A DNA stretch of 64,000 nucleotides from Gammaproteobacteria bacterium (GCA_046757565.1 JBHHYN010000001.1:11466-75465), one strand, 5' to 3'. Shown: positions 7,189-34,138, numbered from the stretch's first letter. Numbers and translations are program-made. The notes: generated from the sequence alone by a model not told the origin.

Positions 7189-7956
7189 TCACTCGGGGAA
7201 GAAAAAGCCGGCGCCATCTGCATGGATGTGTCTAATAGGATGCTGATAAAGCCGTTGCAGATTTTGCTGTATCACAATTTCTTCAACCAGCCCGCAGAGG
7301 ATGGTCTCATGGTCAATCATCAGCATGGCATGGGTACAAAATCGCGAGACCAGATTTACATCATGCAGTACCATTATTATACCACCATCCACGGATTCGG
7401 CCCTGTTTACTATTAATTCCAGCAGGGTTATTTGATGATGAAGATCGAGATGATTGGTCGGTTCATCCAGTAACCAGATAACCGGGTTCTGAACCAGGAG
7501 TGTGGCGATGGCGAGCCGACGCCGTTCACCACCGGAGAGTGTGTTCACCTGGCGCTGCACCATATCCTGCATAGCGACCGCGGACAAGGCCTGATTCGCC
7601 ATGGCAATATCCTCCTTGCCTTCAAACGCCCAAAACGGCAGATAAGGATAACGGCCGGTTAAAGCCGTTTCCATGACAGAGCCTGGAAAGGTATCCTGAC
7701 TATCCTGAAACAGGACCCCGAGTTTTCGCGCCAGGGCCTTCCTGTTCCATTCATCCAGGTCCATACCAGCGACGCTTATCTCGCCTCCCGCGGCCGGCAA
7801 AAGTCCCGCAAGGGTCTGCAGCATCGTGGTCTTGCCAATGCCATTGCCCCCCAGGATACCCCATCGTTGACCATGATCGAGTTTAAAATCCAGGTTTTTA
7901 CAAATAGGTTTGTCCCCGATAATCACCGACAGCGAATGGGTGCTCAGCAGACTCAT
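7189..7956 (-). CDS. btuD: ABC transporter ATP-binding protein (BtuD/HmuV/FecE type). True start at 7956; the 429-aa track ORF is over-extended
   Basis: Walker A GGNGIGKTT, signature LSGGERRR, Walker B WLLDEPTNHLD. Its ATG overlaps the stop of the upstream permease (ATGA). Confidence 0.85.
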   Translation of the reverse strand: MSLLSTHSLSVIIGDKPICKNLDFKLDHGQRWGILGGNGIGKTTMLQTLAGLLPAAGGEISVAGMDLDEWNRKALARKLGVLFQDSQDTFPGSVMETALTGRYPYLPFWAFEGKEDIAMANQALSAVAMQDMVQRQVNTLSGGERRRLAIATLLVQNPVIWLLDEPTNHLDLHHQITLLELIVNRAESVDGGIIMVLHDVNLVSRFCTHAMLMIDHETILCGLVEEIVIQQNLQRLYQHPIRHIHADGAGFFFPE

Positions 7957-11841: not shown

Positions 11842-12201
11842 GGGGGCGTATTGGCTTCGACGTGGTTCACGAAACCTGAAGGGCATGCCGAGGGGCAGAG
11901 TACCTCGTAAATCCAGCTGCAACACTATAGTTGCCAACAACGACAACTTCGCACTCGCTGCTTAATAACCAGTAGAATGCCGTCTGCCCGATGTGTGCTT
12001 GTGCGCTCGGTTCCAGGCGTCGACTCACACAAGATCGCGATAAAGTCTGTCCGCGACGGATTCGTTAAACTCTTGCGGAATCGTTATCTGCCTTCCCTGC
12101 CGTTCGGGTAGCGGGTAATTAAATTTAAAGAACCGGCTAAGCATGTAGAACTGAAGGCAGAGGTCTCGCGGACGCGGGTTCGACTCCCGCCGCCTCCACC
12201 A
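11842..12201 (+). ncRNA. ssrA: tmRNA (SsrA); tag reading frame 11933-11962 encodes ANNDNFALAA followed by TAA
   Basis: 5' GGGGGCG pairs with 3' CGCCTCC-ACCA, including a G3:U pair. TTCGACG and GGTTCGACTCCCGCC T-arm-like elements. Resume codon GCC, then aac aac gac aac ttc gca ctc gct gct taa. Confidence 0.95.
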
Positions 12202-12213
12202 TTAAAAACACAA

Positions 12214-12240
12214 ACCTCCCTTGTGGAGGTTTTTATTTTT
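12214..12240 (+). terminator. Intrinsic terminator of ssrA
   Basis: acctcc-cttgt-ggaggt hairpin followed by ttttattttt. Confidence 0.7.
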
Positions 12241-12366
12241 AACAGTGGGGATTTGAAACCGTGTCCGGTACGGGCAAATCAAGCGGACAAATCAACAAAT
12301 CCAAGGGGTAAGTATCATAATAGGGTCAGTGTCGAATGATCGTACAAATATTGGTTTATATGATTG

Positions 12367-12618
12367 TCATTCTGCAGAGAAATTATAGGGCCGGGCGAAG
12401 ATAGTGGCAGCGATGCCGGCGTCGACTACGCCATATAGTGAAATGATGATGCTGGATATTCCTGTGCCGGGATGATAACCGTGATAGATCGAGTCCACGA
12501 CTTCGAGAAAATTTACAGCGTAGCCGGGAAAAATCAAATTGGCGCTGCTAACGATTAATAATGCCAACCCTCACAAGATAGCCGCTGCCAGTGCAAGTGT
12601 TTTTATTGACAATTGCAT
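12367..12618 (-). pseudogene. Small (83-codon) hydrophobic protein gene interrupted by an in-frame TGA at codon 16
   Basis: ATG at comp(12616-12618) preceded by a GGGAG Shine-Dalgarno. Reads MQLSIKTLALAAAIL-TGA-GLALLIVSSANLIFPGY..., in frame with the 66-aa track ORF (12367-12567, TTG start). Confidence 0.4.
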
Positions 12619-12833
12619 AACTAAACTCCCGTGGATATTAATTGGATAAGGGACATTATCATTAATTAATTACTGTATTTTATTTGTCATCCTCGTCAAT
12701 TATTTCGCCCTTGATGAGGTTTCCCTGTTCTTCCTGCGATCTCTCTTTTTTCCAGTTGGACAGGATGATGGCCAGCAAGCCGAGGATGATCTCGTCTATC
12801 ATCGGTATCATGTCCGGAATGACGATAAAAGGT

Positions 12834-12996
12834 AACAGATTTATTTTTCATGATCGATAAATACTGGATTTCCATTTTGTCCACGTTGTACGATATGATG
12901 GACAGTATTGCTCAATATCTTCCTCGCCTGCCTCGACATCACGCTTCTCCTTAATCATTTTCTTCAAACATTATTATATCAAAAATAATTTTGTCC
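12834..12996 (-). mobile_element. IR-bounded ~163-bp element carrying a 32-codon ORF that matches the N-terminus of a Y1 (RAYT/IS200-like) transposase (copy A)
   Basis: Ends acagatttattttt (12835-12848) and aaaaataattttgt (12981-12994) are inverted repeats (12/14). Inner ORF comp(12841-12939) = MSRQARKILSNTVHHIVQRGQNGNPVFIDHEK with an AAGGAG SD. A diverged second copy lies at 52613-52941. Confidence 0.5.
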
Positions 12997-13021
12997 ATTT
13001 TCTATTCCTTTTCTCCCCAGA

Positions 13022-13270
13022 AGTAATGAGCTTATTAATGATCATGAAACCCATCTGGGTCTGGGTCATACAGAAGAAGAAAGGCGTTATTTGTATAGGG
13101 AGTTATTTCAAGCGGAACTATCCGAACGGGACATTCATACCATTAGTCATTCGTTCCATTATAACTATCCCCTAGGAAATGAGCGATTTAAAGAAAAGAT
13201 TGAAGAGACATTAAAAAGACAAGTAGGATATGCGAAGCACGGTAGACCAAAGCAACCGACAAATGGTTAA
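13022..13270 (+). pseudogene. C-terminal fragment of a Y1 (RAYT/IS200-like, COG1943-type) transposase
   Basis: Manual translation: ...HLGLGHTEEERRYLYRELFQAELSERDIHTISHSFHYNYPLGNERFKEKIEETLKRQVGYAKHGRPKQPTNG*. No start codon or catalytic N-terminal part. Resembles the C-terminal tail of REP-associated tyrosine transposases as I remember them. Confidence 0.6.
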
Positions 13271-13300
13271 AATTAAATCACTCCGGCCCCTTTTTACTCT

Positions 13301-19784: not shown

Positions 19785-21319
19785 TCAGTAATAGCTGAGA
19801 CTCCTGGGCAACAGGTACCGCTCCGCAACTTCAAATATCCCCTGTACCAACAGTGCTAACACGGCGGCCGGGACCGCTCCCTGCAGGATCAGGCCAATAT
19901 CGTCGAGGCGGATACCGGTCAGTATAGGCTGACCATAACCTCCCGCACCAATCAGCGCGGCGATTGTCGCCGTGCCGACATTGATCACCGCTGATGTCTT
20001 GATACCGGCGAGTATGGAACGGGTGGCAAGTGGCAGTTCCACGAGTCGTAAGCGGGCGTTGCTGGATAAACCCAAGGCCTCTGCAGATTCCAGGATTGGT
20101 GTTGGGATGTCACGCAGTCCACTGTGTGTATTACGGATTATTGGTAACAGACTGTAGAGAAAGAGCGCCACAACTGCCGTGGTCCGCCGATACCCAGCAT
20201 GGGAATAAGCAGGACCAACAACGCCAGCGAGGGTATTGTCTGGACCATCCCGGCAACAGCAAGAATGATCTGACCTGCTTCCCTGTAGCGTGCAGCGATG
20301 ACACCGAGCGGGATAGCACAGGCAATGGCCGCGGAGAGAGATATCCCGACCAAAAACAGATGATCCAGTGTATTCCTGACAAACCGCTCAAAAGCCGTGT
20401 CAGTTATTGTTGCTATGGAGATGCCGTAATTGGTCTTTATGAAGTTCGCCACCACAGTGGCCATAGGCAGATGATCGATCTTGACCGCAGCGTTCAGCGC
20501 CCTCATCTGATTGACATTGATACTCCCCGGCAACCTCTCGAGCGCCTGCAAGGCCAGGGGATAGCGTTTCACAAGCCCGGAACGGTAGATAAAGACCGCA
20601 TCATAGGCGGGAAAATAGTGCCGATCATCGGCAAGCGGTTGCAGATTATAGTAGAGGATCTCCGCGTCCGTCGCATACAAATCAGTAACATCCAGACTGC
20701 CGTTTTCCACACCTCTGTAGGCAAGATCGTGATCCAGTCCACGAACATTCCGTTGCGGTAATTGATAATGATGTTTCAGCCCCCGCCAGCCATCCGCCCG
20801 ATCCAGGAATTCATTGCTGAATCCGAACCTGAGTCCGGAGTAACGGCGCAGATCCGATATGGAGCGAACATCGAGTTTTTCCGCCAGCGATCCCGGCATA
20901 CCGATAACATAAGTATTATTAAATCCCAGCGCCTGGGTCATACCTATACCCCGAACGGCCATCACTTCACGCAGCCGTTTGCTACTATGGATCTCCTGAT
21001 CGGCAAATATTTCCTGCATGAGTGTGCCCGTGTATTCTGGATAAATATCAATTTCTCCGGCAAGCAAGGCACTCCACAAAACCCGCGTGCCCCCGAGTTC
21101 GGCCCGGGTTTCAACCGGAATATCGTGATAACGGAAAAACTGCGCGGCAAGTTCCCCCAGGATCACACTTTCGGTAAATTTCTTCGAGGCGACAATGATT
21201 CCGTGGTGTCTATTTTCGTACTTTGGAGCGGAGCTACCCGCACAGCAATAAAACATCCAGACGAACAGATAGAAAAAATAACGGAGAGAATGCTTCATTG
21301 TTCTTCCAGAATCTGCCAC
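19785..21319 (-). pseudogene. Fused substrate-binding + permease component of a glycine betaine/choline-type (OpuBC/ProWX-like) ABC importer, split by a 1-nt frameshift near 20185
   Basis: ORF 20138-21319 has a signal peptide, a betaine-type SBP domain and the first permease helices, ending ...LIPMLGIGGPRQLW.... ORF 19785-20171 continues the permease in another frame (..TTAVVALFLYSLLPIIRNTHSGLRDIP...EALGLS...) with the EAA loop. Confidence 0.7.
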
Positions 21320-24229: not shown

Positions 24230-26710
24230 TTAATCGCCATTCTCCCCCAATTGCGCCTCGATATCATCCAGCAGACTCGAATCCGCCTGCTGTGCCGCTC
24301 GTTTAGCAGCCTCTGCAGTCTGCTTGATACGTTTCATGTGCTCCATCTGTGATGCAATATCGGCAAAATTACTCTCTTTTTCTTCCTGTTCCTCACGGAA
24401 CTCGTTCAAATCGGATTCAAGTTGCCGGTGAAGGTCCTCTTCCATAGCTCTCTTTTTTATCAGGTCTTCTTCATTCACTTTCTTTGCAGCAATGGCTTCA
24501 ACATGTGCCTGTTCGGCCTGTTCAATCTCCCTGTTTGCCTGACTGATCTTCTCTTCTGCCGCCTTGATTTCGCCCTTGATTGATGCCTTCCCTGCCTTGC
24601 TCTTTGTGACGGACTTGTCCTCCTGCCAGGCACGCAGGCGTTTTGTTTCTTCTATAGCCGCCTGTTTTTCTTTTTCCGCTTCATCCCTGGCTTGTTGAAT
24701 TTCCTTCATTGTCTCCTGAATCTTGCGTTGCTCCTGTTCCAGTTTTAATCGTTCAGCCCTCAGCTTTTCTTCCTCGACCGCGCGTTCCTGATCCTGTTTT
24801 TGCTTGAACTCAGCTATAATTTGCTCCGCTTCTTCTTTGGCAGCCCTGCGTGACGCTTCAGCAGCGGCCCGTTCACGCCTTGCCTTGTCCAGCTCTTCAT
24901 GATTGTGTGCAAATTCTTTAGCGAGATTACGCCGTTCTTCCTCCAGCTTCTGCCTGGCCTTTTCCTGTATCTTCCGTTCCTTTTCCTCCTGATCTTTTTG
25001 ATTTTTCAAAGCCTCCTGTTCCAGTGCGTGCCTGGATGACACTACTTCCTCTTTTAACTGCATTGCTTCCTGCAGTTTCCTTCTGGCATCTTCCGCTTCC
25101 CGCTCCAGACGTTTCTTCTCCTGTTTGATTTGCCGTTCGGCCTCCTGCTTCATACGCTGCAGTTTTTCCATTTCCTCGGCATTACGTGTGTAGACTTCAT
25201 CAAGCTTCTTCTTTTCAGCCTGCATACGCTTTGCCGCTTCCTCCTTCATGCGCCTGATCTTCTCTTCCTCCTGCTCATGCAGTCTTTTCGCCTCCTTTTC
25301 CGCCTCTTTTTTTGCAGCTTCTATCTTGGCATGCTCCTCCTTGAGCCTGCGCTCCACCTCCGCCTGCATCTCCTTAACGGAAATATTGTCCGCCTTATGT
25401 TTGACCTCTTTTACATTTTTCAACTGCATATTCGTTTTTGCTAGTTCAGCCTCCAGGACCGAAGCTTTAACGCCTGGGTCAATATCCTGTTTAGTGATCT
25501 CTTCGACCACACTGGTTTGCTCAGCCGCTACAGCTTTTAGGGGTGCCTCCTTTTTTGCTGCGGGAGTTGTTTTTTCCTTCTTCTGCTCTGGAGATGGCGC
25601 CTGGGTTACCTCCGAACTCCTGGCGGCCTGTGGGTTATTGACCAGCCCGCCCCCGAGAAAACAGGCATCCAGACCATTTTCCGCGAGCAGGAAGGCGGCT
25701 GTTGAACTGCGCCCACCTGTGTCACAGTAGACGACATAACGCTTATCCCGGGCAAGATTCCTGGCCTGCATTCGAAGGATATTGAGAGGGATATTCTGAC
25801 TACCCTCTATCGCTGACTCCTCATGTTCGTTTTTGAATCGGACATCGAGCCAAACTCCGGGACCTTCCTCGACCAATTTCAACGCATCATCATAAGAGAC
25901 CGATTGCAGTGTTGGTTTTTCAATCAGCTCAATGAAATTATCCTTACTAAGTTGCATAAGTATGCCGTCCGTTAGCATGGAGACTGTAGCATTCCGGGTC
26001 ATTTCAGAGATCAATGCCTCTTCACCGAAACAATCCCCCGCTTCCAGCACCGCCAGATTGATTGCTTTGCCGCCGGATTGAGGTTTTCGAGACACCTGGC
26101 AGCGGCCTTCCTGGATAATGAAATAATGTTCCCCTGGGTCACCCTGCTTGATGACCACGTCACCGCTTTTAAACTCTATCGGTTCCAACAAGGCAAATAA
26201 CTGGTGAATATTTGCCGTTGGCATTCTGGAGAAAAGTTCGGACTGAAGCGTCCTGGTCATCCAATCGACCGCCTCTTCATCTTCAATTTCGCTGATTTCC
26301 ATTTCGGCAACCTCCATGTCCGCACCCGATGTACTGCTTTCCGCCTGTTCCTTATCCTGTAATACAAGCAATTTATCGAGTTCATCCCGGCGTATCTGCA
26401 GGACGACATATGCTGTTTTCGCTTTGGCTGAAAATTGCCGGGGCTGCAGCTGTGCCATCGCATACCTGGCTCGATCCAAGCCGGCCGTTATCACATTGTG
26501 CTGCTGCTCATTGGCATGCATTTCGATCTCGCCCTCGAGCAGATAATACGAAAAATCATCCCGCTCCCCCTGCTTGAAGATATAGCTGCCCTTGCGGCCC
26601 TTCATGATGACACCCTTGTTAATAACTTCGTTCTGCATCCGTGGCGGCAACTCGTTGATGGGAATGAGCTGGCGGATCGACTCCGCATATTTTTCGTTTT
26701 CTGCAGTCAT
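24230..26710 (-). CDS. Multidomain protein: two cyclic-nucleotide-binding (CAP_ED-like) domains + rhodanese domain + ~430-aa E/K/A/R-rich coiled coil
   Basis: Second cNMP domain has a phosphate-binding cassette GDCFGEEALISEMTRNATV. Rhodanese block WLDVRFKNEHEESAIEGSQNIPL...YVVYCDTGGRSS has the active-site loop CDTGGRS. The C-terminal half is continuous charged heptad-like sequence. Confidence 0.8.
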   Translation of the reverse strand: MTAENEKYAESIRQLIPINELPPRMQNEVINKGVIMKGRKGSYIFKQGERDDFSYYLLEGEIEMHANEQQHNVITAGLDRARYAMAQLQPRQFSAKAKTAYVVLQIRRDELDKLLVLQDKEQAESSTSGADMEVAEMEISEIEDEEAVDWMTRTLQSELFSRMPTANIHQLFALLEPIEFKSGDVVIKQGDPGEHYFIIQEGRCQVSRKPQSGGKAINLAVLEAGDCFGEEALISEMTRNATVSMLTDGILMQLSKDNFIELIEKPTLQSVSYDDALKLVEEGPGVWLDVRFKNEHEESAIEGSQNIPLNILRMQARNLARDKRYVVYCDTGGRSSTAAFLLAENGLDACFLGGGLVNNPQAARSSEVTQAPSPEQKKEKTTPAAKKEAPLKAVAAEQTSVVEEITKQDIDPGVKASVLEAELAKTNMQLKNVKEVKHKADNISVKEMQAEVERRLKEEHAKIEAAKKEAEKEAKRLHEQEEEKIRRMKEEAAKRMQAEKKKLDEVYTRNAEEMEKLQRMKQEAERQIKQEKKRLEREAEDARRKLQEAMQLKEEVVSSRHALEQEALKNQKDQEEKERKIQEKARQKLEEERRNLAKEFAHNHEELDKARRERAAAEASRRAAKEEAEQIIAEFKQKQDQERAVEEEKLRAERLKLEQEQRKIQETMKEIQQARDEAEKEKQAAIEETKRLRAWQEDKSVTKSKAGKASIKGEIKAAEEKISQANREIEQAEQAHVEAIAAKKVNEEDLIKKRAMEEDLHRQLESDLNEFREEQEEKESNFADIASQMEHMKRIKQTAEAAKRAAQQADSSLLDDIEAQLGENGD

Positions 26711-27382: not shown

Positions 27383-29482
27383 CTATATCGCAATCCCGCC
27401 GGAAAAGTCGATAACTACCTTCACCCCTTTCCTGTCCGGTAAATTAGAAGCAGTGATCTTTGCCTGATGAAATTCCGCGATGATTCTCACAATATACAGT
27501 CCTAAACCCAAGTGCGGTTCAGCACCGCCCTGCTTCTCCCGTAATGAAATCATGGAGTTAAACAATTGGCCCGCCATCGCATCCGGTAAGGTTGAGCCAT
27601 AGTTAATCACCTGTAGCGTCCAGTTTTCCCCGGATGATAAAAGACCTACATCGATCGGTTTACCCTCTGTTCCGAAATCAACAGCATTGGCAATAAGCTT
27701 ATCCAGCATTTGTACAATCAGATCGGGTGAAACATTTCGGACAACGGCTTGTTCAGGTTTTCCAAGTCTGAATTCAATACCAGGATAGGCCAGGCGGTAA
27801 GCCTCCACGCAATTACCCAGTAATTGGCCAATATCGGTCTGCTGTTTTTCCGAGCCCTGCAAGGCCTGCTCCAGACGGGTTGCTTCGCTCAAACGGGCAA
27901 TGAGTAAATTCAACCGTTCGATCCCCTCTCTTGCACGATCGAGGTATTGACGCAGCTCTTTTCCTGTCCCACCAGAGTGAAGATTTTCCAGGGAAGACTG
28001 GACAACCGCTATGGGTGTGCGTAATTCATGTGATAACCTGCCAGCCATGCCCTCAAGGTAATTGTTGTAGTGTTGCAAGCGTTCCAGCATGGCAGCATAG
28101 TTCCGGGATACCTCGCCAATTTCATCAGCAGCCTTACTTGCCGTAAATTTGCCGACGACACGTCCGTATTCATCAATGGCGGACTCCGCCTCACTGCTCA
28201 GACGCCTTAACCGGAATGATAATCGTGTTGCGAAAAGTAACAACAACGATGTAACGATAAAAAAAACAAGCAGGGTTTTGTTAAACATCGAGGCCATGGC
28301 ATGACGCTGCAACATCTGTATGCTGTTAGTCGTCTCTTCAACAACGACCGCACCACGTACGGCATTATCGACCCAAACAGGCGTTGCCGCAGAGACAATT
28401 ATGGCCTTGCCATCGGCAGATGTTCGCCAACGGCTTCCCGTCTTTCCCTGTAGTGCCTGCAATACTTCCTGGCCCTGTAATCGTGACGCCCCCGCCAGGT
28501 CATCCTGAAAGCGCTCGGAAACCGGTGGCAGTATCAATGAATAGAGGAAATTAACAGGCTGTCCGGATTCGCTCTTTTCAAGGTTGCCACCGCTTGCCAG
28601 CACCTGCCCACGGCCATCCAGGACCCAGACCCTGCGGCCATCCATTTTGCCGAGACCCCTGATAATCTGTTTGATTTCCGGGGAGGATTGCAACAACCTT
28701 CCGGGCCTGTACTCCGTACTCTCTCCCGCCGTCCCGGTACGGCTGATTATCCGCCTGTTATGAACATCATCAACATCAGCAACAATAAACCCCAGTCGTT
28801 CTCCTATCAGACCTGTCGGTATTGCGATTTCGAGGTTGTAACCCTCCTCCGTCTGCTGCCATACTCCGGTTACATTCGTAATATATTCTACAGTCCGGTA
28901 CTCAAAATTAAACTCATCCCAGTGCCGTTCGTATCTGAACGGCCTGATCTTACCGGGCGCGGACGGGGAAAAATAATAGTGCCTGAGTTCCCCTTCCGGA
29001 TCGGTGAATACCAGCGTCACATGATCATTATCGGTGGCATCAGGTGTATCCGGTTTTTGATAAACAACATTTCTGTCGCGGACCTGGAGCAGCACATCGA
29101 AATACTGCCCATAATGCGTGACGATTAATCTGAAAGAGGCTGGGTCCGGCTGTGACTGGCCCGATTTTCCCGCCGTGTAGACATCCGACCAACCAAGATA
29201 AGTAACCCAGTCATCGGTATATCCATCTATCTGCATGGGATGGTTTAATGTATGCACATAGACGGTCTTTTCGTTCGATGCCGTGGCAACGGGGAAAAGG
29301 TTCGCCTTCTCATGCAGAGGGCCCGCCATGGCGCGGGCGGCATCCATCAGGGAGATTTCCAGAGCATCACGTAAATGACGTTCCAACTCACGCAAATACT
29401 GAAAACCAACGTAAGGAATACTAAGGACGGCAATCGACAGAATCAGTAACTTTGCTCTTATCGTTAATTTTATGCGATTCAT
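27383..29482 (-). CDS. Sensor histidine kinase, proteobacterial dedicated sortase system type (TIGR03785-like)
   Basis: 699 aa. N-terminal TM, large periplasmic domain, second TM plus HAMP, H-box LSHELRTPIAV, N/G boxes (DKLIANAVDF, GLGLYIVR). Size and genomic context (RR, PdsO, target/sortase remnants) fit the family. Confidence 0.8.
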   Translation of the reverse strand: MNRIKLTIRAKLLILSIAVLSIPYVGFQYLRELERHLRDALEISLMDAARAMAGPLHEKANLFPVATASNEKTVYVHTLNHPMQIDGYTDDWVTYLGWSDVYTAGKSGQSQPDPASFRLIVTHYGQYFDVLLQVRDRNVVYQKPDTPDATDNDHVTLVFTDPEGELRHYYFSPSAPGKIRPFRYERHWDEFNFEYRTVEYITNVTGVWQQTEEGYNLEIAIPTGLIGERLGFIVADVDDVHNRRIISRTGTAGESTEYRPGRLLQSSPEIKQIIRGLGKMDGRRVWVLDGRGQVLASGGNLEKSESGQPVNFLYSLILPPVSERFQDDLAGASRLQGQEVLQALQGKTGSRWRTSADGKAIIVSAATPVWVDNAVRGAVVVEETTNSIQMLQRHAMASMFNKTLLVFFIVTSLLLLFATRLSFRLRRLSSEAESAIDEYGRVVGKFTASKAADEIGEVSRNYAAMLERLQHYNNYLEGMAGRLSHELRTPIAVVQSSLENLHSGGTGKELRQYLDRAREGIERLNLLIARLSEATRLEQALQGSEKQQTDIGQLLGNCVEAYRLAYPGIEFRLGKPEQAVVRNVSPDLIVQMLDKLIANAVDFGTEGKPIDVGLLSSGENWTLQVINYGSTLPDAMAGQLFNSMISLREKQGGAEPHLGLGLYIVRIIAEFHQAKITASNLPDRKGVKVVIDFSGGIAI

Positions 29483-29530
29483 GGTCTAAGATTCGTTGCC
29501 TATCACACCTTGTAAGTAACCGCATCCCGG

Positions 29531-30223
29531 CTATTTTGCTTTCCACCGATAGCCCATGCCGTATACCGTATCGATGCGATCAAAGGTCATATCGATTAAT
29601 TCGAATTTTCGCCGTATGCGTTTTATGTGTGAGGTTACTGTTCCATCGTCTACAAAAATATGGGCATCCTGCATCAATTGCTCGCGACTTTTCACATGCC
29701 CCGGAATAATGACCAGTGAATGCACGATCCAGAATTCCGTCAAGGTCAGATCGACCTTTTTGCCCTGCCATTCGACGCTCATGCAATTTTTATCTATGCT
29801 GAGATCGCCGACGGTATGCAGTTGATCACGGGCAAGTTCAGACTGTAAAGCCTGCAGACGACGAAACAGTGCAGCAACTCTGGCAAGTATTTGCGGAATA
29901 GATACATCTTTTGTCAGGTAATCATCGGCTCCGAGACGCAAACCGGAGATTGCATCAAAATCGGAATCCCTTGCGGTCAGAAAAACGATAGGCAACGTCG
30001 CCGACAGAGCACGCAGTTCCCGGCAGATTTCGAAACCGCCTTCCGGATCATCCTCAAGACCGATGTCGATGATTGCCAGTTGCGGCAACCGTTGTCTGAA
30101 GGCAGCCAGGGACTCTTTCTTGCCGGCGTAGGTAATCACTTCGTATCCCTGCTTTTTCAGGGCATCTGCATAGTTTTCCCTGATTGCAGGTTCGTCTTCG
30201 ATCAAGGCAATACGTTTTGCCAT
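29531..30223 (-). CDS. OmpR-family response regulator, dedicated sortase system type (TIGR03787-like). True start is the ATG at 30223
   Basis: MAKRIALIEDEPAIRENY...IIDIGL (receiver Asp)...winged-helix C-terminus LTLTEFWIVHSLV...VTSHIKRIRRKF...YGMGYRW. Confidence 0.88.
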   Translation of the reverse strand: MAKRIALIEDEPAIRENYADALKKQGYEVITYAGKKESLAAFRQRLPQLAIIDIGLEDDPEGGFEICRELRALSATLPIVFLTARDSDFDAISGLRLGADDYLTKDVSIPQILARVAALFRRLQALQSELARDQLHTVGDLSIDKNCMSVEWQGKKVDLTLTEFWIVHSLVIIPGHVKSREQLMQDAHIFVDDGTVTSHIKRIRRKFELIDMTFDRIDTVYGMGYRWKAK

Positions 30224-30428
30224 AGTAATAATCACTCCAGATTTTTTGAACGTATCCCGAGGGATGTACTGTAAACCAAACCGGCATGGATTGAAGCAGA
30301 ATCGCCATAATTTCCATCTTCCTGCCATATTTAATCTCCACATTGCCCGTATTCATCCCCGGGCGCGCCCGATACAGGGGCTTTACTCTATGCATGACCC
30401 CCAATACATCCAGACAGGAGTAATAATC

Positions 30429-31142
30429 ATGATTAAAAACGTGCTCATAGGCCTTGGTCTCCTTTTCCTGTTCCATACAAGCGCCCAGGCCGATGCGGGA
30501 TCAATCCCCTCCTCCCGGCACAAGGATGAAATGGGTTTGGGAGCCGGGGCATTGATTGGCGGCCTGATAGCAGGCCCGCCAGGTGCTGTCATCGGCGCCG
30601 CCGGCGGCGCCTGGTTCGGTAACCGGGAGGCGAAAAAGGACATAAAGATCGCCACTCTGGAAAAAAGGCTGACGGAAAAACAGACCGATCTCGCCTATCT
30701 GCAAACCAGATTGACAGAACTGCAATCCGAATACGGCAGTGAAATGAAAAAGGTTAAACTCGACAACCGCCTTCCGTTATTGCATGAGTTGACCCGTGGG
30801 GTTTCATTAATCGTTTACTTTCGAACGAACAGGGCGAATATCGAACCGGAAATCATCCCCCGAATAGCGCGCCTCGCCGGGTTTTTACGGAATTTCCCCG
30901 AGATAAAACTGCGTATCGAAGCATATGCAGACCGCCGCGGCCGGGAACAATACAATCAACAACTCAGTGGGCGGCGGGCGCAAGCTGTAGAGGATGAATT
31001 GATTGGGGACGGGCTGCAACGTAATCGTATTAGCAGCCGTGCCTATGGGGAATCACGGGCGCTTGCAGCCGAGGGCGATCGGGAAGGGTATGTGTTCGAT
31101 CGCCGTGTAATCGTCCATCTGACCCTGGACAGCGAAGTCTGA
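30429..31142 (+). CDS. pdsO: OmpA-family protein PdsO (proteobacterial sortase system OmpA protein, TIGR03789-like). True start is the ATG at 30429
   Basis: Signal peptide MIKNVLIGLGLLFLFHTSAQA, Gly-rich segment, coiled-coil, C-terminal OmpA_C motif (YFRTNRANI...LRIEAYADRRG...YNQQLSGRRAQAV...YGES). Sits between the RR and the target remnant. Confidence 0.78.
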   Translation: MIKNVLIGLGLLFLFHTSAQADAGSIPSSRHKDEMGLGAGALIGGLIAGPPGAVIGAAGGAWFGNREAKKDIKIATLEKRLTEKQTDLAYLQTRLTELQSEYGSEMKKVKLDNRLPLLHELTRGVSLIVYFRTNRANIEPEIIPRIARLAGFLRNFPEIKLRIEAYADRRGREQYNQQLSGRRAQAVEDELIGDGLQRNRISSRAYGESRALAAEGDREGYVFDRRVIVHLTLDSEV

Positions 31143-31177
31143 CAACGCATTAAGCCCGATCAAACAAGGACTGCCGG

Positions 31178-31813
31178 ATGAAAATAGAAACATCTTTTAT
31201 AACAACAACCCTGCACTGCATCATAATCAGTCTCCTTGTCGGCTTAATCGTAACGTTCATTCTTGCAGGCATTGCAATGTTATTGTCAACGTTTGCACAA
31301 GCCGACACCATGGATGATACGGCAAGCAGCAAGGTCCGGCATTACCACCAGCCAGATGAAGTTAAACGGGGAACGTTACTGTTTTATGGTGAAGAGGGCT
31401 TCACCAGCGCTCCTGTGTTGCACATGGACGTGCACACAGACGTTACCGGCATGATTGCCCGGGCCCGGGCCCATGTCAAACAAGCATTTAGAAATCCCAA
31501 TACAAATGGAAAGAGGACATTTATGTGTTCCCCTTACGATATTTTTACTGATAGTCCTCCCCCTCTGCGGTATATGGTTTATAGGACAAGGCGCCTATAT
31601 CCATGCCAAGGCACTGTTGGCACAGGTACTGCTGAGGCAGCCTGGGCCGAAACCCTGCATGACAAAAAGGAGGTGAAAGCATGGCCATGGGAAGATACCA
31701 GGCCGGTCTCACGCCTGTCGGTGCCAAGCCTTGGGATAAGCCGCATTGTCCTGGCCGGGGCCAATGGCTCCTCCCTGGCCTTCGGTCCAGGACATCTTTT
31801 TAATTCAGCATAG
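31178..31813 (+). pseudogene. Collapsed remnant of the sortase substrate (VIT-vWA target, TIGR03788-like) fused to a frameshifted, truncated dedicated sortase (TIGR03784-like)
   Basis: Frame of 31178: TM/signal plus the VIT-domain start (RGTLLFYGEEGFTSAPVLHMDVHTDVTGMIARA..VKQAFRNP). It continues in a second frame as QYKWKEDIYVFPL (~31497-31540). The frame of 31455 then gives the sortase TM helix LLIVLPLCGIWFIGQGAYIHAKALLAQVLLRQ. After a frameshift near 31640, back in frame 31178: AWAETLHDKKEVKAWPWEDTRPVSRLSVPSLGISRIVLAGANGSSLAFGPGHL, stop at 31811. No vWA domain, sorting signal or catalytic TLxTC region is present. Confidence 0.65.
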
Positions 31814-32011
31814 CCCGGTAAACAGAAGATGTAGTGTAACCAGGACCTACCTCAACATCCCTCGAACCGGTCAGAGACTGCTGTAACAAAACACCAACGA
31901 CCACCAGATCATAGAAGAAAAGAGAGACATCCCTGTCTGATTAAGATTACGATACGATATTATAATATTGACGCCGTTATCTTAAGCCATTCCGTTTAAG
32001 GTGTACATATA

Positions 32012-32048
32012 CCCTTTTCAGGGTATGTCTGACATACCCTGAAAAGGG
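32012..32048. repeat. Perfect 37-bp palindrome (18-nt arms, single central T)
   Basis: cccttttcagggtatgtc t gacataccctgaaaaggg, read directly from the sequence. Confidence 0.95.
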
Positions 32049-32093
32049 CACATACATCCCTTCAATCTATTTCTATAATTAATTCTGTAGAAG

Positions 32094-32534
32094 TTGGATG
32101 TAGCGCCACAATCACCTGCCAGGATAGTATCAATCATTTCCGTAATGAGCTGCTATATGCATAAGAGTTTTTCAAACAAAAAGATTTTTTCCCGGCTTGC
32201 AGCGCTTTGCAAATCAAACAAAACGGTATTGCCATGTGAACTGGATAGTTGGCATACATTCAGTTCGGACAATGTTCAGGTTTTGGTTGATCTGGGCGCT
32301 CGTTTCGAAAACCTGGGATGGCGTTTTGTAGGAATATGGCCTGACCCGGAAGGCACGGCATATTTTCATTTGAGGGTGGCCAGGAAAGGGCTTTATGGCG
32401 AAACGCAGCTTTTGAAAGAAATCAAAATGATGAAAACTGTGGCAGCTGAATTTCCCGTTGTCAATTATAGCAATTGCTCCCACAAACCTGTTACTTCCGG
32501 CGGGCACCGCAATAGTACGAAATTAACGGCCTGA
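32094..32534 (+). CDS. Hypothetical protein (start uncertain; possible ATG at ~32157, MHKSFSNKK...)
   Basis: 146-aa ORF, no recognisable motif, AT-richer by eye. Convergent with the Ser/Thr kinase gene. Confidence 0.3.
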   Translation: MDVAPQSPARIVSIISVMSCYMHKSFSNKKIFSRLAALCKSNKTVLPCELDSWHTFSSDNVQVLVDLGARFENLGWRFVGIWPDPEGTAYFHLRVARKGLYGETQLLKEIKMMKTVAAEFPVVNYSNCSHKPVTSGGHRNSTKLTA

Positions 32535-32563: not shown

Positions 32564-34138
32564 TTAATCTATATCCGATTGTCTCATTTCTTTCTGTATC
32601 TTGTGCAGGGCTTCTTTAAGATTTTTGTTGTTCGGAGCAAGGGTCAATACTTCGCGCAGATAGGCTTCGGCCAGGGCAGGATCATCATCCCTCAGGGCAT
32701 CCTTGATCTTGATATTATACTCCTTTGCCACGACCCGAATCTGCCTTAATGTCCTTTTATCATTTGGGTGATCACGCAACCTTTGTCTCAAGCGGTTAAT
32801 TCTGCGTTTTTCAGTTTCGCTGATCAGGTTTGGACGATCTCTGATCTTGCTGTTTTGAACGGATGCATCATTGGAGTGCGAAGGCAGCATTTCATCCCTG
32901 GGCGATGTATCTACAACCGCAGCCGTGGTTGGATGAGTTTCCGTTGCAGCGGCCATCGTTGCGTGACCGGTGGCAGCGCCATGTTTACTCACCTGCCCGG
33001 CAGTCTCCTGTTGATGCCGCTTTCCTGGCACGGACAGCAAAAACAGAATAACCATGGTGACGGCCACAATCGCCGCGGCACGCCTGATACCCCGGTTCGT
33101 TGCAGGCGTCGTCCGGGGCCGTTGCGGTTCAGCTCTGTCCGGCACTTGCATGGTGATTTTGACTGTCTTTTGCACCACTTTCCCGGGCTCCTCAATCGAT
33201 GCCGCAGCAGGATAGAGTCCCGTCTCTTCATGCTTGTCCTCAATCGTAACGGGAGCGTTGAACTGCTGACGCCACGACGCTATGCTCTGCGGTCTGTCTG
33301 CGGCTTTAAATGCCATGGCGTGGTCGATGCACCGCAAAAATCCCTCCGAGTAGCGGTCACGGCAAATCTCGTTCGCCGGGACATAGATATCCCTGCCCGT
33401 ATGCAACAGGGCTTCACTCCTGTCCATGGCAGCTAACGGGTGCTTTCCAGTCACTGCACGATACAGCGTGGCGCCAAGACCATAAACATCCGTCCACGGC
33501 CCCTGCCTGTCACTTTTACTCACATATTGTTCAAACGGCGCATAACCGGGTGAAATCAGACTGGTTAACGTCCGTGTTTGCTGCCCAAAGGATTGCCTTG
33601 CGGAACCAAAATCCAGCAAGACGGGGCTGCCATCTTCGCGAATAAATATATTAGGTGGCTTGATATCACGGTGGATGAAACCGGCTTCATGGATCTGCTC
33701 CAGCCCGTCCAGCAGGGGCATCAAGATACCTGTTAACTCATCCTCCGGTATGGTCTTTCTTGTCTTCAGGATTTCATGCAGGCCCTGTCCCTGTTCGCAC
33801 TCCATTATCATGTAGGCGGTATTGTTCTCGGGGAAGACCGTAAAGACCCGTACAATATTTTCATGCTTGAACCGGGCCAGCGTCTGCGCCTCGCTGATAA
33901 AACGCTCCAGGCCCCATTTGAACTGCTCGCCATAATCACCCGAAACAGGCTGTATGCACGCGTCGCCCTCCCGCATCGCCATCTCAACAGGCAGGAACTC
34001 CTTAATCGCTACCAGCTGATCCAGATTAGTGTCCTCGGCCAGATAAGTGATACCAAACCCTCCCTGGCCCAGGACGCTCCTGATCAGATACCAATGGAGC
34101 TTATATCCGGGCTGCAATGAATTGCGATATTCACTCAT
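32564..34138 (-). CDS. Hanks-type serine/threonine protein kinase with central TM segment and C-terminal helical/TPR-like tail
   Basis: GQGGFGITYLA (G-loop), VAIKEF (VAIK), HRDIKPPNIF (catalytic loop), DFGSAR (DFG), SPGYAPFEQY (APE-like). Hydrophobic AAIVAVTMVILFLLSV at about residue 350. Confidence 0.9.
   Translation of the reverse strand: MSEYRNSLQPGYKLHWYLIRSVLGQGGFGITYLAEDTNLDQLVAIKEFLPVEMAMREGDACIQPVSGDYGEQFKWGLERFISEAQTLARFKHENIVRVFTVFPENNTAYMIMECEQGQGLHEILKTRKTIPEDELTGILMPLLDGLEQIHEAGFIHRDIKPPNIFIREDGSPVLLDFGSARQSFGQQTRTLTSLISPGYAPFEQYVSKSDRQGPWTDVYGLGATLYRAVTGKHPLAAMDRSEALLHTGRDIYVPANEICRDRYSEGFLRCIDHAMAFKAADRPQSIASWRQQFNAPVTIEDKHEETGLYPAAASIEEPGKVVQKTVKITMQVPDRAEPQRPRTTPATNRGIRRAAAIVAVTMVILFLLSVPGKRHQQETAGQVSKHGAATGHATMAAATETHPTTAAVVDTSPRDEMLPSHSNDASVQNSKIRDRPNLISETEKRRINRLRQRLRDHPNDKRTLRQIRVVAKEYNIKIKDALRDDDPALAEAYLREVLTLAPNNKNLKEALHKIQKEMRQSDID

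What the first reader, a model, noticed from the sequence alone, without database searches (positions are those of the whole stretch)
27383..31813. Dedicated sortase locus keeps its kinase, regulator and PdsO but has lost both the enzyme and its substrate
**Seen in the sequence.**
- A 699-aa kinase, an OmpR-type regulator and an OmpA-family protein are intact.
- Only 636 bp (31178-31813) follow, where a ~700-aa VIT-vWA substrate and a ~200-aa sortase are expected.
- That stretch holds the substrate signal/TM region and first VIT residues in one frame, continuing as QYKWKEDIYVFPL in a second frame.
- It then joins directly to the sortase N-terminal TM helix in a third frame.
- A further frameshift near 31640 leads to a stop right after GPGHL. 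This is upstream of where the catalytic His and the TLxTC cysteine should lie.

**Established knowledge.** The five-gene 'proteobacterial dedicated sortase system' is defined by TIGR03784 (sortase), TIGR03785 (HK), TIGR03787 (RR), TIGR03788 (target) and TIGR03789 (PdsO).

**Inference.** The two-component pair and PdsO are either on their way to loss or have been retained for another role. This is a natural knockout that separates the signalling part from the effector part of a poorly understood system.
Basis: partly seen in the sequence, partly recalled or inferred. Interest (0 to 1): 0.7.

Follow-up and report, generated by a model that had tools for sequence, protein, structure and literature searches.

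The report
Sortase locus missing enzyme and substrate
A five-gene surface-protein locus has lost its sortase enzyme and substrate to deletions, while its sensor kinase, regulator and OmpA-like protein stay intact; this is ordinary gene decay, but relatives suggest the signalling part can work without the sortase.

Summary
pdsS (27383-29482, -), pdsR (29531-30223, -) and pdsO (30429-31142, +) are full length. The HK and RR pass the NCBIfam cutoffs. PdsO scores 141 against a cutoff of 152, like its orthologue in an intact locus (144).

The next 646 bp (31178-31823) are a composite pseudogene: target codons 1-118 with a -1 frameshift, a ~1.8 kb deletion joining the target to sortase codon ~5, a second -1 frameshift at 31633/34, a TAG at 31811, and loss of everything after sortase codon ~101. 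The catalytic His, Cys and Arg are gone. A second assembly that differs elsewhere carries the same sequence.

New findings:
- The loss is recent. Remnant differences from an intact sortase gene fall 15/9/36 by codon position.
- A sister clade (L003/L008) lost the same two genes through different lesions.
- In that clade, after the loss, HK+RR+PdsO show pN/pS 0.18 (P=1e-6), and the pdsR-pdsO promoter region is invariant.
- About 13 of ~24 surveyed PdsS loci have no target or sortase within 8 kb.

Most likely PdsS/PdsR/PdsO is a self-sufficient envelope module and the sortase pair is a dispensable add-on. Interest is modest. A second copy elsewhere in the genome cannot be excluded.

The parts
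27383..29482 (-). pdsS, a sensor histidine kinase of 699 aa, intact
   Evidence: It scores 660 bits on TIGR03785 (cutoff 612.2) over profile positions 1-701 of 703. It keeps every invariant column of a 15-sequence alignment of close PdsS homologues, including the H-box HELRTP. It is 63% identical to the HK of the intact locus L010.
29531..30223 (-). pdsR, an OmpR-type response regulator of 230 aa, intact
   Evidence: It scores 370.7 bits on TIGR03787 (cutoff 335.7) and carries the Pfam domains Response_reg and Trans_reg_C. The ATG at 30223 is set by homology and by the alignment, and confirmed.
30306..30362 (+). Conserved block in the pdsR-pdsO divergent intergenic region. It is a candidate PdsR binding site and pdsO promoter: TTCCAT and TGCCAT lie 11 bp apart.
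   Evidence: This is the only well-conserved stretch of the intergenic region across the window, L008 and L010. The whole 255-bp intergenic region has 0 differences between L003 and L008, against 2.9% in the remnant (P=5e-4). The binding function is inferred and was not tested.
30429..31142 (+). pdsO, an OmpA-like protein of 237 aa with signal peptide, glycine zipper, coiled coil and OmpA_C domain, intact
   Evidence: TIGR03789 is the best hit at 141 bits (cutoff 152.2), and Pfam OmpA scores 58.9 bits. The PdsO of intact locus L010 scores 144.4 and that of L008 scores 144.7. The length matches the orthologues (237-239 aa).
31178..31536 (+). Remnant of the VIT-vWA sortase target gene (codons 1-118 of ~709), with a -1 frameshift at about 31505
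   Evidence: tblastn with the L010 target aligns aa 1-117 at 44.5% identity (E=1e-24 against the whole window, 2.8e-28 against the local region). KWKEDIYVFPL aligns in the other frame. TIGR03788 gives only 12.1 bits.
31534..31538 (+). Deletion junction: target codon 118 is joined to sortase codon ~5, with about 1.78 kb missing relative to L010
   Evidence: The frames and alignments to the L010 target and sortase show the join. In L010 the two genes overlap by 4 bp.
31536..31823 (+). Remnant of the class GN sortase gene (codons ~5-101 of ~196). It has a 1-nt deletion at 31633/31634 and a TAG at 31811-31813. The catalytic His, Cys and Arg regions are absent.
   Evidence: TIGR03784 scores 61.6 bits (cutoff 158.25) over profile positions 27-84, plus 3-28 in the other frame. 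An HMM built from 109 GN sortases covers positions 10-107 of 201 only. The remnant is 80.9% nt identical to the intact sortase gene of L092 over 283 nt. The single-base gap is mapped by that alignment and homology ends at 31823.
31824..32156 (.). AT-rich (about 41% GC) sequence that replaces the 3' half of the sortase gene. It contains a 35-nt palindrome at 31995-32065.
   Evidence: Local alignment to the 3' half of the L010 or L092 sortase genes scores no better than shuffled controls. GC drops here. The palindrome is unique in the window. The downstream genes differ between the window, L008 and L010.

Best explanation
This is a Pds locus whose effector half has recently been destroyed in place. 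One deletion of about 1.8 kb fused the first 118 codons of the VIT-vWA target to codon ~5 of the class GN sortase. Two -1 frameshifts and a nonsense codon followed. A second event replaced everything after sortase codon ~101 with unrelated AT-rich DNA. No sortase activity or substrate can therefore be made from this locus.

The signalling half (PdsS and PdsR) and the gene they control most strongly in Shewanella (pdsO) are intact, together with the conserved block upstream of pdsO.

The most likely working model is as follows. PdsS senses an envelope or periplasmic cue. PdsR activates pdsO. PdsO, a peptidoglycan-binding OmpA-like protein, is the output. This three-gene module is self-sufficient, and the sortase/target pair is an accessory that lineages lose repeatedly.

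Shown here: the lesions, their recency, an independent parallel loss in a sister clade, purifying selection on the three retained genes after that loss, and the frequency of effector-less loci. Inferred: that selection also acts in the window's own lineage, the PdsR box, and the envelope function of PdsO.
For: **Lesions and reproducibility**
- The lesions are mapped.
- The same sequence occurs in two Logan assemblies. L002 (SRR29324609) is identical to the window over 16.2 kb. L001 (SRR29324611) differs by 3 SNPs and 1 indel elsewhere in 22.1 kb.

**Recency**
- Against the intact L092 sortase, remnant differences fall 15/9/36 by codon position over 98 codons.
- Against L010 they fall 16/11/32 over 77 codons.
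- This is the signature of purifying selection.

**Independent loss in L003/L008**
- The junctions differ: target codon ~64 is joined to sortase codon 16.
- There is an extra deletion of sortase codons 38-59, and the stop lies at about codon 110.
- Each lineage keeps segments that the other lacks.
- Third codon positions of the intact genes differ at about 0.6 between all pairs, so they are saturated. A shared ancestral pseudogene would by now be unrecognisable.

**Selection after the loss (L003 vs L008, 98.6% nt identity)**
- The remnant is 2.9% diverged, close to pS of 2.6-2.9%.
- HK+RR+PdsO show pN/pS 0.18 (21 synonymous, 13 non-synonymous changes; binomial P=1.3e-6).
- The pdsR-pdsO intergenic region has 0 differences in 255 bp (P=5e-4).

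**Survey**
- 8 loci have an adjacent target and sortase. About 13 have neither within +/-8 kb.
- The effector-less set includes L020, L021 and L060, with HK scores of 926-963 bits and PdsO scores of 195-227 bits, all above the cutoffs.
- In L020 and L060, where the downstream genes were identified, pdsO is followed by housekeeping genes.
- Effector-less loci are interspersed with effector-bearing ones on an HK tree.

**Literature**
- In S. algae, a pdsS G547W mutation raises pdsO 799-fold, the target 388-fold and the sortase 126-fold. pdsO shows the largest change in the transcriptome, and the mutation is linked to beta-lactam resistance (PMC11580497).
Against: - Selection after the loss is demonstrated only in the sister clade, from 34 substitutions in metagenome contigs. 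The window's own lineage has no close relative in the databases; the next HK is 69% identical.
- 'No adjacent effector' does not mean 'no effector in the genome'.
- VIT-vWA homologues can instead carry GlyGly-CTERM or PEP-CTERM signals and be handled by other sorting enzymes (PMC3237569).
- Only 64 kb of this genome was visible.
- The PdsO role in S. algae is correlative.
- The NJ tree has no support values.
Confidence: 0.75

Rival explanations
1. The three retained genes are simply the next to go. The whole system is under relaxed selection in this organism, and pdsS, pdsR and pdsO have not yet been hit.
For: The loss in the window is recent, so little time has passed. No within-lineage polymorphism data exist for the window, because L001 and L002 are about 100% identical to it. 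PdsO is slightly below its NCBIfam cutoff.
Against: About 3.5 kb of coding sequence carries no frameshift or stop, while the neighbouring 0.65 kb carries at least 5 lesions. All invariant HK residues are kept. The sister clade shows pN/pS 0.18 and an invariant promoter region after its own, older loss. Effector-less loci are common. PdsO in the intact L010 locus is also below the cutoff.
Confidence: 0.15
2. The organism still has a working sortase/target pair, or a VIT-vWA protein sorted by rhombosortase or exosortase, elsewhere in the genome. This locus would then be a decayed duplicate, and the two-component system still serves the sortase system.
For: Only 64 kb of the genome is visible. 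VIT-vWA homologues with alternative sorting signals exist (PMC3237569). Many PdsS loci have no adjacent effector genes, so separated arrangements are conceivable.
Against: No second copy exists in the window. In a 5.8-billion-protein collection that includes the assemblies carrying this contig, no sortase is more than 85% identical to the remnant and no close intact target N-terminus appears among the top hits. The locus is syntenic with the single intact locus of L010, with the same cNMP/rhodanese neighbour, as expected for the orthologous copy.
Confidence: 0.15
3. The frameshifts and deletions are assembly or sequencing artefacts.
For: The source is metagenomic short-read assemblies. One neighbouring gene (OpuAC-permease, 19785-21319) differs by a 1-nt indel between assemblies.
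Against: The 5.6 kb around the locus is identical in two separately assembled runs, and L001 has SNPs elsewhere. A 1.8 kb deletion and a missing 3' half are not homopolymer errors. A related clade shows comparable decay in a GenBank MAG and a JGI contig.
Confidence: 0.02
4. The pseudogene is ancient and was inherited from the common ancestor of the window and L003/L008. The L003/L008 state would then come from a later nested deletion.
For: Both lineages join the target N-terminus to the sortase N-terminus, and the L003/L008 deletion is nested around the window's junction. The window's frameshift at sortase codon ~41 lies where the L003/L008 internal deletion begins.
Against: Synonymous sites between the two lineages are saturated (pos3 about 0.6). 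Yet the window remnant differs from intact sortases at only 9% of second positions and 38% of third positions. The window remnant is closer to intact L010 than to L008 (78.6% vs 73.8% in S7; 75% vs 61% in S5), although its intact genes are closer to L008.
Confidence: 0.04
5. The 211-codon chimeric ORF (31178-31813) is a new functional gene, for example a PdsR-controlled membrane protein made from the target signal/TM region plus a sortase fragment.
For: The reading frame is open from the original target start codon to the TAG. It sits directly downstream of pdsO, and gene callers call it.
Against: There is no full-length homologue anywhere. The L003/L008 remnant has a different, non-equivalent 92-codon ORF. 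About 45 codons are read out of frame, and such a stretch stays open by chance roughly 10% of the time (my estimate). The remnant evolves at the neutral rate in L003/L008.
Confidence: 0.03

Closest known systems
Proteobacterial dedicated sortase (Pds) system: pdsS-pdsR / pdsO-target-sortase, as in Shewanella algae (PMC11580497) and as defined by TIGR03784/85/87/88/89
   Same: The gene families, order and orientation are the same: pdsS-pdsR diverge from pdsO-target-sortase. The HK and RR are above the equivalog cutoffs. Recognisable target and sortase sequence sits in the expected places.
   Different: The target is reduced to 118 codons. The sortase is reduced to about 97 codons without its catalytic residues and is interrupted by two frameshifts and a stop. 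PdsO scores slightly below its cutoff.
Intact orthologous locus L010 (ENA ERZ23486248 scaffold_420; HK 63% identical)
   Same: It shares the flank on the kinase side (an ~820-aa cNMP-binding/rhodanese protein and a 411-aa protein) and the same five-gene layout. PdsO also scores 144 bits.
   Different: L010 has a 709-aa target (TIGR03788, 810 bits) and a 196-aa sortase (TIGR03784, 213 bits). The DNA downstream of the sortase is unrelated to that in the window.
Decayed loci of the sister clade: L003 (MAG B75T3L11, JADFPU010000068) and L008 (JGI 3300022707)
   Same: pdsS, pdsR and pdsO are intact, with a short target-sortase remnant after pdsO.
   Different: The junctions differ, there is an extra internal deletion, and the stop and downstream gene differ. 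The remnant is more decayed (L8-L10 differences 24/19/33 by codon position, against 16/11/32 for the window). The loss is therefore independent and older.
Effector-less PdsS/PdsR(/PdsO) loci in metagenomes (for example L020, L021, L060)
   Same: They have the same three-gene content as the functional part of the window. Their HK and PdsO scores are above the NCBIfam cutoffs.
   Different: They have no remnant at all. In L020 and L060, where the neighbours were identified, pdsO abuts housekeeping genes. These look like old or primary arrangements, whereas the window shows the loss caught in progress.

Membership tests
Proteobacterial dedicated sortase system (five-gene Pds system) | PdsS histidine kinase scoring above the TIGR03785 cutoff | tested here: met
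   660 bits against 612.2, full-length match.
Proteobacterial dedicated sortase system (five-gene Pds system) | PdsR response regulator scoring above the TIGR03787 cutoff | tested here: met
   370.7 bits against 335.7.
Proteobacterial dedicated sortase system (five-gene Pds system) | PdsO OmpA-like protein scoring above the TIGR03789 cutoff | tested here: inconclusive
   141 bits against 152.2, best hit by a wide margin. PdsO of the intact locus L010 scores 144.4 and that of L008 scores 144.7, so the whole clade sits just under the cutoff.
Proteobacterial dedicated sortase system (five-gene Pds system) | VIT-vWA sortase target (TIGR03788) with a C-terminal sorting signal | tested here: not met
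   Only codons 1-118 remain. TIGR03788 gives 12.1 bits against 551.65. The vWA domain and sorting signal are deleted.
Proteobacterial dedicated sortase system (five-gene Pds system) | Class GN sortase (TIGR03784) with the catalytic His, Cys and Arg | tested here: not met
   61.6 bits against 158.25. Only profile positions ~3-107 are present, split over two frames and containing a stop. Nothing matches the His, Cys or Arg regions.
Proteobacterial dedicated sortase system (five-gene Pds system) | Conserved gene neighbourhood: pdsS-pdsR divergent from pdsO-target-sortase | tested here: met
   The order and orientation match L010 and the S. algae description.
OmpR/PhoB-type two-component system | HisKA and HATPase_c in the kinase with an H-box His; receiver and winged-helix domains in the regulator | tested here: met
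   Pfam domains are present. H485, E486, R488, T489 and P490, plus the N- and G-box residues, are invariant columns retained in the window protein.
Functional (expressed, stress-responsive) PdsSR-PdsO module | Transcription of pdsO under PdsR control | not testable with these tools
   The only support is a conserved upstream block and the analogy to S. algae.

The most novel reading that the evidence does not exclude
PdsS-PdsR-PdsO is an autonomous and widespread envelope-stress or peptidoglycan-tethering module. The 'dedicated' sortase and its VIT-vWA substrate are a facultative add-on that is repeatedly lost. The window, L003/L008 and L041 would be three independent decays caught in progress. 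The two-component system would then be misnamed, and the function of PdsO could be studied without the sortase.
Probability: 0.45. Interest if true: 0.45.

Novelty: new variant of a known kind. Interest (0 to 1): 0.35.

Why it matters
The Pds system is known almost only from comparative genomics and one clinical study in Shewanella algae. What the sortase attaches, and what the kinase senses, are both unknown.

The window itself is just a pseudogenised operon half. Seen alongside an independent parallel loss, the purifying selection on the retained genes after that loss, and many effector-less loci, it suggests that the regulatory pair and PdsO form the conserved core and that the sortase and target are dispensable.

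This gives a concrete hypothesis for genetics in Shewanella: compare a pdsO deletion with a sortase/target deletion. It also warns annotators that the 211-aa 'hypothetical protein' called here is a chimeric pseudogene. It does not open a new field.

Tried and rejected
- **Sortase C-terminal half.** I looked for it after 31823. My own by-eye alignment of 'VTRTYLNIPRTGQRLL*QNTNDHQIIEE' to the His-box region is not supported. The HMM from 109 sortases reports nothing there with filters off. Local DNA alignments to L010 and L092 score within the shuffle range (31 against a shuffle maximum of 31; 27 against a maximum of 36).
- **Frame-A resemblance to the catalytic TLxTC region.** 'CSPYDIFTDSPPPLRYMV' resembles that region at E=1.3-2 in a tiny search space. 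It lies on DNA that clearly encodes the sortase N-terminus in another frame, so I treat it as chance.
- **Conserved chimeric protein family.** I searched for one with the 211-aa ORF and found none.
- **Closer relatives of the window lineage.** I searched in order to date the loss and found none above 69% HK identity.
- **Repeats at the deletion junctions.** Nothing convincing turned up, and the palindrome at 31995-32065 is unique in the window.
- **Promoter and terminator scans.** They were uninformative, with fewer hits than in shuffles.

Full report
**1. What is in the sequence**

On the minus strand lie a 699-aa histidine kinase (27383-29482) and an OmpR-type regulator (29531-30223). On the plus strand, divergent from them, lies a 237-aa OmpA-like gene (30429-31142). 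After it comes one 211-codon ORF (31178-31813).

NCBIfam scores:

| Gene | Model | Bits | Cutoff |
|---|---|---|---|
| Kinase | TIGR03785 | 660 | 612.2 |
| Regulator | TIGR03787 | 370.7 | 335.7 |
| OmpA-like protein | TIGR03789 (PdsO) | 141 | 152.2 |

PdsO misses its cutoff slightly. This is not decay. The PdsO of a complete five-gene locus from a relative (L010) scores 144.4, and that of L008 scores 144.7. The kinase keeps every invariant column of an alignment of 15 close PdsS homologues, including the H-box.

**2. The remnant**

The closest intact locus is L010 (ENA ERZ23486248). Its HK is 63% identical, and it shares the cNMP-binding/rhodanese neighbour. Its target scores 810 bits on TIGR03788 and its sortase 213 bits on TIGR03784. 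I used its proteins, an intact sortase gene on L092 (P0002; 80.9% nt identity over 283 nt), and an HMM built from 109 class GN sortases. With these the lesions map as follows:

- 31178-31504 encodes target residues 1 to about 109 (signal/TM region and the start of VIT).
- One base is missing at about 31505, so WKEDIYVFPL (31507-31536) is read in another frame.
- At 31534-31538, target codon 118 is joined to sortase codon ~5. About 1.78 kb is gone.
- 31536-31633 encodes the sortase TM helix and 'GIWFIGQGAYIHAKALLAQVLL' in a third frame.
- One base is missing between 31633 and 31634, which returns the reading to the first frame.
- The TAG at 31811-31813 replaces a sense codon (Lys in L010, Val in P0002).
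- Similarity to any sortase stops at 31823, just after 'PGK', about 10 codons before the catalytic His.

Only HMM positions 10-107 of 201 are represented. The His, Cys and Arg regions are absent. In their place is AT-rich DNA (about 41% GC) with a unique 35-nt palindrome. No second target or sortase exists in the 64 kb.

**3. Not an artefact**

The 5.6 kb around the locus is identical in two separately assembled sequencing runs. L002 matches the window over 16.2 kb. L001 differs by 3 SNPs and one indel elsewhere in 22.1 kb. The 211-aa ORF has no full-length homologue among 5.8 billion proteins. Only its last ~58 residues match intact sortases of about 195 aa, at 75-85% identity.

**4. How old, and is it shared?**

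The nearest relatives by HK (69-70% identity) are L003, a GenBank MAG, and L008, a JGI contig. They also lack both genes, but their lesions differ:

- Target codon ~64 is joined to sortase codon 16.
- Sortase codons 38-59 are deleted.
- The stop lies at about codon 110.
- The downstream gene is different.

Each lineage retains segments that the other lacks.

Third codon positions of the intact genes differ at about 0.6 between all pairs, so synonymous sites are saturated. A pseudogene inherited from the common ancestor would be unrecognisable by now. Instead, the window remnant keeps a clear selection signature:

- Against L092, differences fall 15/9/36 by codon position over 98 codons.
- Against L010, they fall 16/11/32 over 77 codons.
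- The L008 remnant is flatter (24/19/33) and has twice as many amino-acid changes in the best-conserved segment.

I conclude that the two lineages lost the genes independently. The window's loss is the more recent.

**5. Are the retained genes under selection after the loss?**

This cannot be asked in the window's own lineage, because no close relative exists. It can be asked in L003 against L008. These are 98.6% identical and share the same remnant, so all their divergence postdates the loss.

| Region | Result |
|---|---|
| Remnant | 14 differences in 476 bp (2.9%), like other intergenic DNA (3.2-3.6%) |
| HK | pS 0.029, pN 0.005 |
| RR | 2 synonymous, 0 non-synonymous |
| PdsO | 5 synonymous, 5 non-synonymous |
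| HK+RR+PdsO pooled | pN/pS 0.18; binomial P=1.3e-6 against neutrality |
| pdsR-pdsO intergenic region (255 bp) | 0 differences (P=5e-4 at the remnant's rate) |

That intergenic region contains the only block conserved between the window, L008 and L010. It holds TTCCAT and TGCCAT 11 bp apart, the geometry expected for an OmpR-family direct repeat. The binding role is my inference.

**6. How unusual is an effector-less locus?**

A scan of metagenome contigs returned 80 loci. I screened them with local HMMs, checked against NCBIfam. Among loci with a PdsS-like kinase and at least 5 kb upstream:

- 8 carry an adjacent target and sortase: L007, L010, L018, L022, L040, L044, L048, L050.
- About 13 carry neither within +/-8 kb: L004, L006, L015, L016, L020, L021, L027, L029, L034, L035, L045, L056, L060.
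- 2 carry a sortase without a VIT-vWA target: L023, L052.
- 1 carries a truncated target (aa 11-214) and no sortase: L041.

L020, L021 and L060 are textbook by score (HK 926-963 bits, PdsO 195-227 bits). In L020 pdsO is followed by PhzF, a phosphate-transporter-like gene, ThrRS and IF-3. In L060 it is followed by an ABC transporter and PanP.

On a rough NJ tree of the kinases, effector-less loci are interspersed with effector-bearing ones. One caveat applies throughout: absence from the neighbourhood is not absence from the genome.

**7. What is known**

Full-text searches found one experimental paper. In Shewanella algae, a recurrent pdsS G547W mutation raises pdsO 799-fold, the target 388-fold and the sortase 126-fold. 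pdsO shows the largest change in the transcriptome, and the mutation is associated with carbapenem resistance (PMC11580497).

Haft and Varghese (PMC3237569) describe the sortase (TIGR03784) as a dedicated, strictly Gram-negative enzyme encoded next to its single LPXTG target. They also note that the same VIT-vWA family occurs with GlyGly-CTERM or PEP-CTERM signals in other genomes.

**8. Interpretation**

The locus cannot produce sortase or substrate.

The best-supported reading is this. PdsS, PdsR and PdsO form a self-sufficient, selected module: a sensor, an OmpR-type activator, and a peptidoglycan-binding OmpA-like output. The sortase/target pair is an accessory that has been shed here recently and, independently, in the sister clade.

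The steps that are shown and those that are inferred are listed under the best explanation. Two rivals remain open at about 0.15 each:
- The three genes are merely next in line for decay.
- A second effector pair exists elsewhere in the genome.

**9. Verdict**

This is a real feature, correctly described, and biologically ordinary at its core: a recent pseudogenisation. Its added comparative value is modest. It is a degenerate, effector-less variant of a known system. Interest 0.35.

Noticed in passing
window 19785-21319 (-): A fused OpuAC substrate-binding/permease gene is split into 128-aa and 393-aa ORFs in the window and in L002. It is one 504-aa gene in L001 (SRR29324611). The only indel between L001 and the window in 22.1 kb probably lies here. 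It is either a strain polymorphism creating a second pseudogene or an assembly error.
   Followed up: partly
L041:6553-7077 (-), next to pdsR at 7263-7946: This soil-metagenome PdsS/PdsR locus (WNFI01359154.1) carries only residues 11-214 of the VIT-vWA target and no sortase within 8 kb. It is a further, unrelated example of effector decay.
   Followed up: partly
L023:5759-6373 and L052:6431-7237: These PdsS/PdsR loci have an intact sortase-domain gene directly upstream of pdsR, but no VIT-vWA target and no PdsO nearby. In L023 the next genes are a DUF1451 protein and a 584-aa CAP-domain protein. Their substrate may be a different protein.
   Followed up: partly
L020, L021, L054, L060, L027 (metagenome loci): This clade of kinases gives the highest TIGR03785 scores measured in this work (907-963 bits for L020, L021, L027 and L060; L054 was not scored against NCBIfam). 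Most also have above-cutoff PdsO. None has a target or sortase within +/-8 kb. Loci with a target and sortase (L018, L022, L044, L050) show only a weak OmpA-like hit downstream of the kinase.
   Followed up: partly
window 31995-32065: A 35-nt near-perfect palindrome (80% complementary, 1-nt spacer) lies in the AT-rich DNA that replaced the sortase 3' half. It is unique in the window and is not followed by a T-run.
   Followed up: partly
window 32157-32534 (+) and 32564-34138 (-): A 125-aa ORF with no family hit in Pfam or PADLOC sits next to a 524-aa Ser/Thr protein kinase. The kinase domain matches the PADLOC models mad6 and PD-T4-6 (E=1e-50 to 1e-47). The match covers the kinase domain only, so a defence role is not established. 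This flank differs from L010 and L008.
   Followed up: partly
window 11842-12201 (+) and 12202-13300: A tmRNA gene (216.7 bits) is followed by about 1.1 kb without any ORF of at least 110 aa. tmRNA genes are common integration sites (my own knowledge). I did not examine this further.
   Followed up: no
window 24230-26710 (-): An 826-aa protein with cNMP-binding and rhodanese domains and a long, very Glu/Lys-rich C-terminal half is a conserved neighbour on the kinase side of the Pds locus in the window, L003/L008 and L010.
   Followed up: no
window 31520-31585, frame of the 211-aa ORF: 'CSPYDIFTDSPPPLRYMV' resembles the sortase C-terminal 'TCYPFDA..GGPLRYVV' catalytic-Cys region (E=1.3-2 in a very small search space). 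It overlaps DNA that clearly encodes the sortase N-terminus in another frame, so I judge it to be chance.
   Followed up: yes
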